64,000 nt of DNA from an uncultured archaeon (GTDB lineage Archaea; Thermoplasmatota; Penumbrarchaeia; JASLWR01): assembly GCA_964430885.1 (NCBI GenBank), contig CAYSHM010000015.1:9265-73264 (forward strand), written 5' to 3'. This document shows, piece after piece, positions 1,576-4,500 of this stretch; within the stretch, counting starts at the first letter, position 1; each line of letters begins with the position of its first letter. A program made the position numbers and the translations under genes. The notes under the pieces are model-generated. The model had not been told where the DNA came from. It saw only the letters and a list, made by a program, of their open reading frames with translations, and did no database searches.

Positions 1576-4500
1576 CTACTGCTCTATCTGCACCTCGAAG
1601 AGTTCATTGTCCTTTGTCTTCAGGGCGAAGTAGTACCCAGCCCGTGCCTCACCAGGGTCGGGAGTTCCATCGTAGTTCACATGGTCCTCGCTCTTGATGA
1701 TGAACCGATCACCAGTGGACAAATACCCGTCATGGTCCCCGTCATGGAAGGAAACGATGGTCTCGTTGTCGATGGACTTGCCGTAGATAGCGGTCACCTT
1801 GTGCTGACCCATGCTCTTATCCACCTTGTTTCCGTCCATAAGAGAGAACTCCAGATCCTCAACCGAGAACTCTTTATCCTTCACGTTCTCTATGATGAGC
1901 TGGTAGTCGTTCTGAAGCGTTGGACTTTCCCAGGCGGTATCAACATACTCGATATCGTTGCTCTTCTGTGTATCCACAAGTCCCGATACCCAGAGCCAGA
2001 GAACACCGGCAAGAACGATGGTAATGGCCACCATGAGAATTATGGCTATAACCGGTGAAACACCGTCCTCGTCCTTCTTTCTCCTATTTCCCTTCTCATT
2101 ATTACGGGAATAGAGATTCGCTATCACAGCTCCAGCAAGAAGGGCCAGAATCATGAAGGCTAAAGCGGGTGCGAATGACGGGGTCTCGGATGCAGGCGGT
2201 GCTGCAACTGCGTGGAGTTCTGTCAAGGTCCAATCATCACCTTCGTTCCACTGGAAATCACGCATATCTGCCCCACCGGGTACGTCCAGTATCTCGACCT
2301 TGAGATAGTTCACCGTGTCCGCATTGTCCGTATCATAGTTCAATGCGCTTGCCATGCTCTCGAACGGAATGAGGACACTGTATTCCTTGATTCCTTCCTT
2401 ACTATTAACCAGGTTCAGGAGTCTGAAGGTTGAATTCGGGGCTCCGCTGGTATGAATAACATGCCCGTCACCCTGTTCTTCACCCTGGAAGTTCACCTCA
2501 TGATAGATCGTGCACTTCACAAGAAGCTGCAGATTGTCGGGGAATGAATCTTCGGGAGAATTATAGTGGACGGGAACCCTCAGTTCAAAGGGGGTGTCAA
2601 GCAGGAACTCAGTAGCTCCGATCTCCTCCCTCACTACCCAAACATTCAATCTATTGAATACTCTGATGGGTATCTCCAATGTGACCTCACCTTCAAGGAA
2701 ATCGTCCGTATCCTCGGCGGTAATATATACATAACCATCGAGATAAGAATATTCTCCAGGTTCGATCTCAGGGTTGTCATCAAGGCTGAAGTAGTCCACA
2801 GCTTCGAACATGTCATCGTCCATAATTCCAAGTAACTCATCGGTATCCCAGTCAGTTATTGTCAGGCCACTAACAAGGTTTCCCCATTGGTCAAAACCCT
2901 GAACATCAAAGGTCTGGGTCCCGCTCACAGGGATTAATAATCGGCCGTCAGCAGCGTATTGGGCTTCAAGAACAGAGGGATCAGGTATCGGAGTCAATTC
3001 TGCCAATGGTCCCGCTCTAACCTCCATATCCAATTTTCCGTTTATTGCATGGTTAATTCCAGATTTCACGTTGATTTCCAGATCTCCTGTTGCCTTGTAG
3101 AAAATGAACTCGGTTAGCTGGTCCTGTGCTGTTATCACCCCATCGATCATTCCCATGATTATATTAGAGGTCTCAGTAGCCCAGGGTTCAGGTTCAAGTT
3201 CACCAGTAGCCATGGAATTGTGCTCCACTATCATTGGGGCTTCATATGAAGAGGAAACATGATCTCCCTGATCCACCGCAACTATATCTATATACAGGGT
3301 TTCACCGGCATAGATATAATTATCCGGTCTTCCTGATACGCCCATTTGATCCCAATCAGGTGTGACTATAAGGTGGTGAACTGGTCCTGCATCCACGAAT
3401 AGTTCAACCTGGGCACTCAGACCTTCGATGGTCTCGAATTGGATGATCGTGTCGCCATCTCCCATATAGGTCCAAGGAGTAATGAAGAAGGTATGAAGTG
3501 CTCTGTCTGCGGGTGTGAACTCGTAATACAAATATCCGTCATACAGTCCTCCATCATCCTCTACCAGAACTTCTTCGGAGAAGTCAACTTCACCGTCCAG
3601 CATACTGATGTACATCTTTCCGGTCCAATCCACAGCTTCATTTCCGTAGTCGTCCTGTACAGCTACCGTCAAGATGTCAGTCATGCTGTACATATATGAA
3701 GGCAGAGCGGTCACCGTGGCAGTGGTTGCCGGACCGGATGTCAGGGTTATCGGGAATTCAAAGGTTTCTCCGGTCCTTGTTTCAGGTCCGTGGGTTACCG
3801 TGATAGTACCCTGATCCCCTGGAGATCCGCCTACAATGTGGAGATATTTCTGATGACTGAATCCGGTATCAAAGAGCTGGAAACTATCAACGGTGGGGAG
3901 ATCGATCTGCCAGCCATGGTATTCTTGCGGTGGCATCTCTCCAGGCGGTTCGAGATCATCCCAAGCCAACAATGTGAGCAGGTTTCCGTTTTCCGGATTC
4001 GGTCCATGTTTATTCGCAATAAAGGTAGTATCATCGCTGAACTCAGCATAAGCAAACTCCTGAACCCTAAGATATGGTGATTCAAGTTCCATATCAACGA
4101 TCTCGTTGTCCCATGATATGTACTGAAGTGTGAATAAACCAATCTCGCCGGCAAATCCAACGGGTGAAGAGATCATGAACTCAATAATGAACTCATCCCC
4201 GACAAATACCACATCATCGTCTGGGTTTGCATCTGCGGATGACCATTCTATCTCGGTAAGGCCGGGATCATCATCAATTATTATACCGTCTGCTCTTTCA
4301 TAGGTGAATCGGACCTCAGAGGCAGCCGGATCGCCGCCGCCCATGTAGGATATCTCAACTTTTCCATGGTCGGAGTTTACTCCAGCTTCGTTATCCTGAT
4401 TCTCACCATCATTGAATGAACCTCCTCCGCCCCCAGCAGTCGGATAATGGTAACCGCCGCCACCGCCGGAATATCCTCCTCCGCCTCCAGAACCCCAGCA

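What the first reader, a model, noticed from the sequence alone, without database searches (positions are those of the whole stretch)
1576..2200. Internal prepilin cleavage site: candidate adhesin-pilin polyprotein
Seen: after ~2200 aa of ectodomain the ORF reads ETPSF-APALAFMILALLAGAVIANLY-SRNNEKGNRRKK-DEDG|VSPVIAIILMVAITIVLAGVLWLWVSGL, followed by a ~130-aa globular domain. TPSF is residues 2202-2205 (nt 2173-2184), and the G|V site is at nt 2062/2061 (residues 2242/2243). Established: charged residues + G/A|VSPVI..ILMVAIT..LA is the class III signal of archaeal Pilin_N/DUF1628 pilins. It normally sits at the extreme N-terminus and is cut on the cytoplasmic side by PibD/FlaK. PGF + TM + basic cluster is the archaeosortase A (PGF-CTERM) signal and normally sits at the extreme C-terminus. 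Inference: the two signals are joined tail-to-head with a consistent topology (out / TM / short cytoplasmic loop / TM / out). One prepilin-peptidase cut would release a mature 161-aa pilin and leave a giant adhesin ending in a normal-looking sorting signal, giving 1:1 co-production from one ORF. Alternatively the uncut pilin helix recruits the adhesin to the pilus machinery. I do not know of a described system with this architecture.
Basis: partly seen in the sequence, partly recalled or inferred. Interest (0 to 1): 0.92.

Follow-up and report, generated by a model that had tools for sequence, protein, structure and literature searches.

The report
Giant archaeal surface protein ending in a pilin
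A family of giant cell-surface proteins in marine Thermoplasmatota archaea carries, behind a membrane anchor at its tail, a complete pilus-subunit precursor with its cutting signal, an arrangement that I found described in no paper and that suggests one gene product is cut into an adhesin and a pilin.

Summary
ORF 1576-8787 (-), 2403 aa, ends in TPSF, TM1, a 16-residue basic loop, G2242|V2243 SPVI, a 29-residue pilin helix and a 132-residue head. Pilin_N and TIGR02537 score above their cut-offs.

It is not an assembly error. Ten paralogs in this genome end the same way. So do genes in G003, G005 and G007, 40 of the 150 best representatives in a 1.8-billion-protein library, and giants of 4500-5500 aa in at least 46 genomes of two families of another class.

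Across paralogs the pilin part is under extreme purifying selection (pN/pS 0.02, against 0.3 upstream). It models as an archaeal type IV pilin. Residues -5 to -1 match those of stand-alone prepilins of the family. A divergent A24 peptidase, archaeosortase A and pilus ATPase/platform genes are present.

Cleavage is not shown. The PGF-CTERM model does not match (PSF, not PGF). Relatives with a non-pilin second helix or a lipobox-anchored head keep an uncut hairpin anchor as a live rival.

Verdict: a real, widespread feature that I did not find in print. It is a new variant of known signals, and its mechanism is inferred.

The parts
1576..8787 (-). Whole ORF, 2403 aa (P0001): a giant surface protein that ends in a pilin module
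8680..8787 (-). N-terminal basic stretch plus hydrophobic segment (residues 1-36). This is a presumed Sec signal or signal anchor. The boundary was set by eye.
   Evidence: sequence; no predictor was run
4366..5034 (-). One scored ALK/LTK glycine-rich domain (residues 1252-1474). Similar Gly-rich repeats fill residues ~100-1480, which form the variable 'head' region.
   Evidence: PF12810, 27.4 bits, cut-off 24.5; repeats seen
2188..4350 (-). Constant 'stalk' (residues ~1480-2200). It is shared with family members whose heads differ (BNR, Kelch and others). Its last ~160 residues form the membrane-proximal domain.
   Evidence: blastp 31-52% identity over ~900-1000 aa; Pfam lists
2167..2184 (-). 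T2202 and the invariant P-S-F-A-P (2203-2207) just outside TM1. This is a PGF-like motif.
   Evidence: invariant in 12 of 12; PSF in 36 of 49 fused relatives, PGF in 3
2110..2172 (-). TM1 (A2206-Y2226), a variable hydrophobic helix running from outside to inside
   Evidence: only 4 invariant columns
2062..2109 (-). Cytoplasmic loop S2227-G2242 (SRNNEKGNRRKKDEDG). It holds no in-frame ATG, GTG or TTG. The predicted A24-peptidase cut follows G2242 (nt 2062|2061).
1975..2061 (-). Pilin alpha-1 helix V2243-V2271, the class III signal core
   Evidence: 29 of 29 columns invariant; helix
1579..1974 (-). Pilin head (D2272-Q2403), a beta-sandwich with the motif SFHDGDHDGYLSTGDRF
1..1380 (-). 5' part of the next paralog (P0003, 2382 aa; it runs off the window). 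It ends in the same module.

Best explanation
The gene encodes a polyprotein with a conserved C-terminal cassette.

Proposed topology: the Sec-type N-terminus takes about 2200 residues of ectodomain outside. TM1 stops transfer. A short basic loop stays in the cytoplasm. The pilin helix re-inserts with its N-terminus inside, which puts the 132-residue head outside.

Proposed processing: the cell's divergent A24 (FlaK/PibD-type) aspartyl peptidase cuts after G2242 at the cytoplasmic face, as it does in ordinary prepilins. This gives two products.

1. A mature 161-residue type IV pilin with the same sequence from all ten paralogs. It can enter the pilus machinery.
2. The giant protein, now ending in PSFAP + TM + basic tail. 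That resembles an archaeosortase-A sorting signal, so it may be trimmed and lipid-anchored in a second step.

What is shown: the architecture, its recurrence, the selection pattern, the pilin fold, and the presence of the enzymes.

What is inferred: the topology, the cut (my odds about 0.6), polymerisation of the released pilin (about 0.6 if cut), and ArtA action on PSF (about 0.4).
For: 1. The module is a true pilin. Pilin_N and TIGR02537 score above their cut-offs. The AF2 model has pLDDT 85.9, with a helix at 4-29 and a beta-sandwich. The best Foldseek PDB hits are the Cuniculiplasma divulgatum filament subunit (E 6.5e-5, prob 1.00), the Haloferax volcanii type IV pilus (2.1e-4), then archaellins and Natrinema pilins. 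Stand-alone orthologs with ordinary short leaders exist in a sister genus, in L004 (alignments A1/A3: 43-46% and 35-40% identity).

2. It is not an artefact. 10 of the 14 Pilin_N matches in the genome sit at the end of open frames of 1498-2424 aa with the same layout. The layout recurs in G003, G007 and G005. It also recurs in 7 metagenome proteins with other head domains, in 40 of the 150 best representatives, and in at least 46 of 301 genomes of the phylum, all in families f31 and f14, inside frames of up to 5515 aa. 10 of 10 fetched loci from that search were verified.

3. The second helix is constrained like a pilin helix, not like an anchor. V2243-V2271 is invariant in 12 giants that share about 29-48% overall identity, while TM1 has 4 invariant columns. 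Among 9 paralogs the pilin part has pS 0.438 and pN 0.009 (ratio 0.02). The ectodomain gives 0.734/0.236 and PSF+TM1+loop gives 0.618/0.180. DNA identity steps up exactly at the site and collapses after the stop.

4. The leader-proximal residues, which my search pattern did not select, match those of stand-alone prepilins. At -4, D in 43 of 49 fused against D/N in 57 of 89 N-terminal. At -3, E/D in 37 of 49 against E/K/D in 73 of 89. At -2, D/E in 29 of 49 against E/D in 59 of 89.

5. The loop holds no start codon in any of 9 paralogs. No stand-alone copy of this pilin was found in the 91.6%-complete genome. The pilin can therefore only come from the precursor.

6. The enzymes are present.
- A 376-aa A24-type protein lies at C5:80400-81545. 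It matches Arc_PepC_II at 49.5 bits (cut-off 29.9) and FlaK_Arch at E 1.2e-15, and carries D...N and GGADAK motifs.
- ArtA scores 125 bits.
- There are five T2SSE ATPase matches and seven T2SSF platform matches.
- About 15 canonical [ST]PGF+TM+basic-tail proteins are encoded.
- ArtA was found in 5 of 5, and Arc_PepC_II in 5 of 5, tested f31/f14 genomes.

7. A relative (L136) ends in CPSFSPS + TM + short basic tail + stop. PSF therefore also occurs as a true C-terminal signal.
Against: - No experiment or proteomic datum shows a cut.
- PF01478 finds no peptidase in this genome or in 5 f31/f14 genomes. The candidate is far below the FlaK equivalog cut-off (57.7 against 330 bits).
- PGF_CTERM does not match.
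- From memory, known class III leaders are short and N-terminal. No substrate with a TM helix and 2200 residues ahead of the site is known.
- Relatives P0042 and P0053 keep ectodomain, TM1, 12-residue loop, TM2 and head, but TM2 is not pilin-like. Other relatives carry the head behind an ordinary TM anchor or a lipobox-like signal. The head can therefore work without a pilus.
- A filament fed only by this precursor would cost about 2240 residues of adhesin per 161-residue subunit.
- The giant genes are not next to pilus machinery.
- pS in the pilin part (0.44) is lower than upstream (0.73). Some gene conversion may add to the apparent constraint.
Confidence: 0.5

Rival explanations
1. Uncut two-helix hairpin anchor. 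TM1 and the pilin-derived helix simply hold the giant protein in the membrane. The head, a pilin-derived beta-sandwich, sits beside the membrane-proximal domain as a structural or docking element, in the way FlaF and FlaG do. No peptidase acts.
For: - P0042 and P0053 have the same domain order with a non-pilin TM2.
- Head homologs occur behind ordinary TM anchors (P0033, P0047, P0066, P0081, P0159) and behind lipobox-like signals. The lipobox forms lie next to genes that carry the membrane-proximal domain (L134, L135).
- FlaF and FlaG are among the structural matches (E about 1e-2).
- The giants are not encoded near pilus machinery.
Against: - A plain anchor does not need 29 invariant residues while TM1 drifts, nor the prepilin-type -5..-1 residues.
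- Where TM2 is clearly only an anchor (P0042, P0053) it has lost the motif. This shows what relaxed selection looks like.
- pN/pS 0.02 over the whole module points to a shared, tightly packed partner.
Confidence: 0.28
2. Cut, but not polymerised. The released pilin stays in the membrane through its helix as a pseudopilin or 'bindosome'-like anchor, bound to the base of the giant protein.
For: This keeps all the evidence for a cut. It also fits the anchor-swapped head homologs, the cost argument, and the weak complex prediction (median ipSAE 0.37, best control 0.00).
Against: - The helix is identical across genera, as in filament-forming pilins.
- The closest solved structures are filament subunits.
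Confidence: 0.15
3. The pilin is translated on its own from an internal start, so the long frame is only a read-through overlap of two genes.
For: - In the f31 clade a Met lies 7-10 residues before the site in 10 of 10 loci.
- One G005 gene has the loop ...MEKNEKA|VSPII.
- A GTG inside TM1 exists in 5 of 9 paralogs here.
Against: - No ATG, GTG or TTG occurs in the loop of any of 9 paralogs here.
- Several members of the f31-type clade lack the Met.
- There is no stop between the parts in any copy, so the long product is made in any case.
Confidence: 0.05
4. Assembly or frameshift artefact, or a one-off dead fusion.
For: Contigs break inside the module (C1 ends in it, C37 begins with its last 19 codons). 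This shows that it is a repeat that troubles assemblers.
Against: - Ten in-frame copies with about 45 synonymous differences per pair.
- Dozens of other genomes.
- Bridging contigs without indels.
Confidence: 0.01

Closest known systems
Archaeal type IV pilins with class III signal peptides (Pfam Pilin_N PF07790, TIGR02537; e.g. Haloferax volcanii PilA pilins, Cuniculiplasma divulgatum CdiPB)
   Same: - Small residue|VSPVI and an invariant hydrophobic alpha-1 helix.
- A beta-sandwich head.
- The acidic -4..-2 context of this family's stand-alone prepilins.
- Structural match to solved filament subunits.
   Different: - The signal lies 2242 residues into the protein, behind an ectodomain, a TM helix and a loop. 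In CdiPB it lies behind an 11-residue leader (passages of PMC12448462).
- The same mature pilin is encoded ten times, and in this genome never as a gene of its own.
PGF-CTERM / archaeosortase A substrates (TIGR04126; Haloferax volcanii S-layer glycoprotein, recalled)
   Same: - A Pro-x-Phe motif directly before a TM helix followed by a basic cluster.
- ArtA and canonical PGF-CTERM proteins in the same genome.
- PGF itself in 3 of 49 fused relatives.
   Different: - PSF instead of PGF.
- No HMM match.
- Not at the C-terminus unless a first cut creates it.
Class III signal peptides on non-pilin surface proteins (Sulfolobus sugar-binding proteins of the 'bindosome', recalled; Szabo et al. 2007 seen only as a reference)
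   Same: The prepilin pathway is used to place large non-filament proteins at the archaeal surface.
   Different: There the signal is N-terminal and the cargo follows it. Here the large cargo precedes it.
Bacterial modular pilins and pilus-tip adhesins (Streptococcus sanguinis PilB/PilC, PilY1/PilC of Neisseria and Kingella; abstracts in the listing, otherwise recalled)
   Same: An adhesin module is coupled to a pilin so that the two act together.
   Different: - In modular pilins the extra domain is grafted to the C-terminus of the pilin.
- Tip adhesins are separate proteins.
- None is made as a precursor with the adhesin ahead of the leader-peptidase site.
Polytopic polyproteins cut by GxGD aspartyl intramembrane proteases (signal peptide peptidase on the hepatitis C virus core/E1 junction, recalled)
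   Same: One chain with alternating topology is divided at a membrane helix by a protease of the same mechanistic class as prepilin peptidases.
   Different: This is an analogy only. The enzyme family branch, the cleavage position and the organisms all differ.
FlaF/FlaG (ArlF/ArlG) archaellum stator proteins
   Same: A pilin-like beta-sandwich on an N-terminal membrane helix that works at the membrane surface (Foldseek E about 1e-2).
   Different: - Much weaker structural match than to the filament pilins.
- From memory, these proteins lack the conserved cleavage motif.

Membership tests
Archaeal type IV pilin (Pilin_N PF07790 / TIGR02537) | Profile match above the curated cut-off | tested here: met
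   PF07790: 34.6 bits on the whole protein, 39.5 bits on the last 274 aa (cut-off 25.2). TIGR02537: 36.2-39.8 bits (cut-off 20).
Archaeal type IV pilin (Pilin_N PF07790 / TIGR02537) | Signal at the extreme N-terminus behind a short charged leader | tested here: not met
   The site follows residue 2242 of 2403. The stand-alone relatives have a median leader of 12 residues.
Archaeal type IV pilin (Pilin_N PF07790 / TIGR02537) | Small residue at -1, then a hydrophobic helix of ~20 or more residues | tested here: met
   G|VSPVIAIILMVAITIVLAGVLWLWV. -1 is A or G in 49 of 49 fused relatives, but the search pattern required G, A or S there.
Archaeal type IV pilin (Pilin_N PF07790 / TIGR02537) | Alpha-1 helix plus beta-sandwich head, like solved archaeal pilins | tested here: met
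   AF2 pLDDT 85.9. Foldseek: 8rey_A E 6.5e-5 and 8fj5_A E 2.1e-4, both prob 1.00, with TM only 0.40-0.48.
Archaeal type IV pilin (Pilin_N PF07790 / TIGR02537) | Cleavage by a prepilin (A24) peptidase and assembly into a filament | not testable with these tools
   A candidate peptidase and assembly genes are present. No functional data exist.
PGF-CTERM archaeosortase A sorting signal (TIGR04126) | Profile match | tested here: not met
   No hit at E<=1 on the protein. The genome scan at E<=1 hits three other places, one of them over the cut-off.
PGF-CTERM archaeosortase A sorting signal (TIGR04126) | PGF tripeptide, TM helix and basic cluster in that order | tested here: inconclusive
   Here the motif is PSF (invariant PSFAP), followed by a TM helix and RRKK. 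Among 49 fused relatives: PSF 36, PGF 3, PAF 1.
PGF-CTERM archaeosortase A sorting signal (TIGR04126) | Located at the extreme C-terminus | tested here: not met
   161 residues follow. It would be met only after the proposed cut. One relative (L136) has PSF+TM+tail+stop.
PGF-CTERM archaeosortase A sorting signal (TIGR04126) | Archaeosortase A encoded in the genome | tested here: met
   TIGR04125: 125.1 bits (cut-off 75) at C3:141732-142517. It also matches in 5 of 5 f31/f14 genomes.
A24 prepilin/preflagellin peptidase (for the candidate at C5:80400-81545) | Peptidase_A24 PF01478 match, or the FlaK equivalog | tested here: not met
   PF01478: 14.2 bits (cut-off 26.5). FlaK_Arch: 57.7 bits (cut-off 330).
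A24 prepilin/preflagellin peptidase (for the candidate at C5:80400-81545) | Archaeal A24 C-terminal domain and the two Asp motifs | tested here: met
   Arc_PepC_II: 49.5 bits (cut-off 29.9). MDIRTRKVMN and GGADAK are seen in the sequence. That these are the catalytic motifs is recalled.

The most novel reading that the evidence does not exclude
The cassette is a 'carrier pilin' delivery device.

- After the A24 cut, and after release of the ectodomain at PSFAP by archaeosortase, each giant adhesin stays bound through its membrane-proximal domain to the head of the pilin it was made with.
- The adhesin is then lifted out on a type IV pilus.
- Because all ten paralogs supply the same pilin, one filament would display ten different giant adhesins. 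In the f31/f14 lineages it would display one protein of 4500-5500 aa.

Three observations fit this.

- The pilin sequence is held identical in every paralog.
- The head and the membrane-proximal domain travel together, whether fused, in a hairpin, or as neighbouring genes.
- There is a weak complex prediction between the membrane-proximal domain and the head. The median ipSAE was 0.37 and the best control 0.00. The three runs gave 0.00, 0.37 and 0.69, and agreed in at least 0% of contacts. The partner's pLDDT was at least 77. The mark was reached by 58 of 80 solved complexes and by 2 of 110 mismatched pairs. At 0.60 or under it was reached by only 7 of those 80 and by both mismatches, so such a pass is more often wrong than right.
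Probability: 0.12. Interest if true: 0.92.

Novelty: new variant of a known kind. Interest (0 to 1): 0.8.

Why it matters
As far as I know and could find, class III signal peptides are N-terminal leaders by definition, and tools such as FlaFind look only there.

A conserved internal site would have three consequences.

- Prepilin peptidases could process polytopic precursors.
- A pilin and a giant adhesin could be made from one chain.
- Surveys of archaeal pilins would miss a whole class.

The architecture is conserved in uncultured marine Thermoplasmatota, including two families whose largest gene (about 4500-5500 codons) ends this way. It therefore bears on how these planktonic archaea attach to particles.

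It also offers a direct test of whether an archaeosortase signal can be unmasked by a first proteolytic step.

Tried and rejected
- **Assembly error or lost stop:** rejected.

- **Recent gene conversion as the sole cause of identical pilins:** rejected, because pairs differ at about 45 synonymous sites. A contribution is not excluded, since pS is lower here than upstream.

- **PF01478 search for the peptidase:** no hit in the genome. The weak hit at C1:9357 is the permease of an ABC-type transporter locus, judged by eye. The candidate was found through a relative's protein instead.

- **Split ancestral state (adhesin gene followed by a pilin gene):** not found at the tandem pilins of G002.

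- **Naming families f31 and f14:** not achieved. Five named Poseidoniia, MGIII and Thermoplasmata MAGs of 1.0-1.2 Mb held only stand-alone pilins. That f31/f14 are Marine Group II is my guess from genome size and is not used as evidence.

- **The search for related loci in genome contigs:** 3 true fused loci among the 80 kept (plus one false positive). Its patterns excluded the VSPVIAT clade.

- **AF2 of the whole 274-residue module:** poor (pLDDT 62, 4 sequences). It shows only two helices, at 78-104 and 116-142, with a low-confidence loop between them.

- **RNA:** contigs of two metatranscriptome runs lie at 99% or more on nt 2396-3400 (one more, of X3, on 1400-1443, downstream of the ORF). 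None lies on the pilin part. Contigs cannot show transcript ends, DNA can be present in such libraries, and a hole proves nothing.

- **Literature:** searches brought no description of an internal class III signal or of a pilin behind a C-terminal anchor.
  - Makarova et al. 2016 (PMC4858521): only 'find' passages were seen.
  - Thermoplasmatales pili (PMC12448462): only passages.
  - Rinke et al. 2019 (PMC6461757): only passages.
  - Their supplements, which list pilin families, were not open to me and may bear on the novelty claim.

- **My classifier:** the fused / N-terminal sorting is a regular expression plus a hydrophobic-run rule. 19 of 158 proteins stayed unclassified.
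Full report
**What is there**

ORF 1576..8787 on the minus strand encodes 2403 residues. 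It begins with a basic stretch and a hydrophobic segment. Four or more glycine-rich repeats follow, one of which scores as ALK_LTK_GRD. Then comes a long region without Pfam matches.

The end reads ...AAPPASE-T2202 PSF-APALAFMILALLAGAVIANLY-SRNNEKGNRRKKDEDG2242 | V2243 SPVIAIILMVAITIVLAGVLWLWVSGLV-..., followed by 132 further residues.

- Pilin_N matches residues 2241-2314 above its cut-off.
- TIGR02537 matches residues 2240-2270 above its cut-off.
- The PGF_CTERM model does not match.
- Hydropathy gives exactly two hydrophobic segments in the last 274 residues.

**It is a family, not an accident**

A scan of the whole genome (3.13 Mb, 44 contigs, 91.6% complete) with Pilin_N gives 14 matches.

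- Ten lie 163 codons before the end of open frames of 1498-2424 aa. All ten have [TV]PSFAP, a TM helix, a basic loop and [DE]G|VSPVI. One of them is cut by a contig end.
- An eleventh (C6:139987-145143) has the signal at residue 510 of 1718. It is again preceded by an ectodomain, a TM helix and a 36-residue basic loop. It lies directly after two platform genes and an ATPase gene.
- Three are ordinary short prepilins.

No stand-alone copy of the fused pilin was found in this genome.

**Other genomes**

With the 274-residue module as query, 30 of 41 related genomes have some match, mostly ordinary pilins. I fetched the long frames and found the fused layout in the following:

- G003 (same family): three genes, one complete at 2363 aa.
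- G007 (another family): 1238 aa, with STPGF before TM1.
- G005 (a third family): six genes. Their post-helix domains are 146-613 residues long. One loop reads ...MEKNEKA|VSPII, which looks like a fossil prepilin start.

A search among long proteins gave 14 hits, 7 of them from other metagenomes (48-52% identity). Their heads differ (BNR, Kelch, PF21722, glycine-rich), but the last ~900-1000 residues are shared.

A profile search of 1.84 billion representatives gave 4892 hits at E<=1e-3. By my classifier, 40 of the best 150 are fused. These include a second large clade, [AS]VPSFAPS-TM-RR(E/D-rich loop)-A|VSPVIATILMVAITVVLSG..., at the end of proteins of up to 4595 aa.

Searching 301 genomes of the phylum with that clade's module found full-length matches in at least 46 genomes, all in families f31 and f14 (1.8-2.2 Mb). 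There is usually one per genome, in frames of 4500-5515 aa. Ten of ten fetched loci show the layout.

The nearest named relatives are Thermoplasmatota MAGs.

**Reads**

Two marine DNA runs of one study hold the stretch. That study may be the source of the window. In both runs, 185-nt contigs covering nt 2009-2193 bridge TM1, loop and pilin start without a difference, and no indel is listed.

**The pilin part is a real pilin under unusual constraint**

With a 7-sequence alignment, AF2 gives pLDDT 85.9, a helix and a beta-sandwich. Foldseek ranks solved archaeal pilus and archaellum subunits first. Stand-alone orthologs with short leaders and the same helix exist in G002 and G039.

Across 12 giants that share 29-48% identity, PSFAP and all 29 helix residues are invariant. 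TM1 has only four invariant columns.

Selection across nine paralogs:

| Region | pS | pN | pN/pS |
|---|---|---|---|
| Pilin part | 0.438 | 0.009 | 0.02 |
| PSF + TM1 + loop | 0.618 | 0.180 | 0.29 |
| Ectodomain | 0.734 | 0.236 | 0.32 |

The step in DNA identity sits at the predicted cleavage site. Ten genes are thus held to encode one and the same mature pilin.

**The site looks like a substrate**

Positions -5 to -1 were not part of my search pattern, apart from -1. They have the same acidic consensus in 49 fused proteins and in 89 N-terminal prepilins of the family. The loop has no start codon in any of nine paralogs.

**Enzymes**

PF01478 fails in this genome. Relatives have weak A24 hits, and the G003 protein finds a 50%-identical ortholog at C5:80400-81545. 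That ortholog matches Arc_PepC_II above its cut-off and FlaK_Arch at E 1.2e-15.

Also present:

- ArtA.
- About 15 canonical [ST]PGF-CTERM-like tails.
- Several ATPase/platform sets.
- ArtA and Arc_PepC_II matches in 5 of 5 tested f31/f14 genomes. PF01478 is again silent there.

**What complicates the picture**

- In G003 and G001 (one genus), a head homolog with a lipobox-like signal lies between genes that carry the membrane-proximal domain, a plain TM helix and a stop.
- P0042 and P0053 have signal peptide, membrane-proximal domain, TM1, a 12-residue loop, a non-pilin TM2 and the head.
- Other representatives carry the head behind an ordinary TM anchor.
- One G002 protein ends in CPSFSPS, a TM helix, a short tail and a stop.

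The constant theme is therefore the pairing of the membrane-proximal domain with the head. The head's anchor varies. Where the second helix is only an anchor, it has drifted. In the main clades it is frozen.

A complex prediction for membrane-proximal domain against head gave weak support only (figures in the section on the most novel reading).

**Reading**

The most economical account is a polyprotein cut at the internal class III site. It explains three things:

- the retained leader context;
- the frozen helix;
- the absence of a separate gene for this pilin.

I put the cut at about 0.6. The full chain of cut plus a role of the pilin in a filament is lower. The report's confidence of 0.5 refers to the cut and its two products.

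The uncut hairpin stays a serious rival (0.28) because anchor-swapped relatives exist.

Whether PSFAP is an archaeosortase signal is open. Its invariance, its position, and one true C-terminal case speak for it. The HMM and the missing Gly speak against membership.

**Novelty**

Nine literature searches and passages of three papers showed nothing like it (listed under Tried and rejected).

I file it as a new variant of known kinds: a class III signal and a PGF-like anchor signal joined tail to head. It is not a new kind of system.

Noticed in passing
own genome C6:139987-145143 (-), outside the window: A 1718-aa ORF has its own N-terminal signal-like segment and a ~430-aa ectodomain. An Asp/Thr/Ser-rich linker, a TM helix and a 36-residue basic loop follow, then NG|VSPVIGTILMV and ~1200 further residues. 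It lies directly downstream of two T2SSF platform genes and a T2SSE ATPase. This is a second, independent fusion of the same logic, without a PSF motif. Met472 and Met474, at the end of the TM helix, could be an alternative start.
   Followed up: partly
L134:7982-11475 (G003:C1) and L135:9028-10338 (G001:C103): A head-domain homolog (161/168 aa) carries a lipobox-like signal (...VMGC / ...GMGC) in place of the pilin helix. It is encoded between or beside genes that carry the membrane-proximal domain, a TM helix and a stop. This is a neighbouring-gene version of the fused pair. Both genomes belong to one genus, so it counts as one observation.
   Followed up: partly
own genome C1:251141-251279 and C37:15252-15308: Contigs end inside the pilin module, which is ~90% identical among paralogs. 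The repeat breaks assemblies, so copies are probably undercounted in MAGs.
   Followed up: no
own genome C5:80400-81545 (-): The only A24-type peptidase candidate is missed by Pfam PF01478 (14 bits). It matches Arc_PepC_II above its cut-off. The same holds for relatives (weak PF01478 scores) and for five f31/f14 genomes. This phylum's prepilin peptidases are divergent.
   Followed up: partly
L012-L015 (G005): Fused genes in which the pilin helix is followed by 311-613 residues. A conserved ~130-residue pilin-like part comes first, then a large domain rich in W/Y/D motifs of unknown family. The cleavage context has Ser at -1 in three of the five genes, as does an N-terminal prepilin of the same genome (L016).
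   Followed up: no
L116-L125 (family f31): A Met lies 7-10 residues before the predicted site in 10 of 10 loci (...ETMAEDDAA|VSPVI). It could be a conserved internal start or a remnant of the ancestral pilin gene. Other members of the clade lack it.
   Followed up: partly
window 18855-21245 (-) and 21774-24173 (-): Two tandem paralogous proteins of ~800 aa, each with five PKD domains (PKD_4, 169-170 bits). They are further surface proteins. The other neighbours are housekeeping genes: Lhr-type helicase, PLD, FKBP, undecaprenyl-diphosphate synthase and an MFS transporter.
   Followed up: no
window 4348-8490 (-): The variable head of the giant protein consists of repeated units of ~300 residues. 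Each has long Gly runs and ends in ...HGKV.I.... Only one unit reaches the ALK/LTK glycine-rich domain cut-off. Five such giants stand in tandem on contig C26.
   Followed up: no
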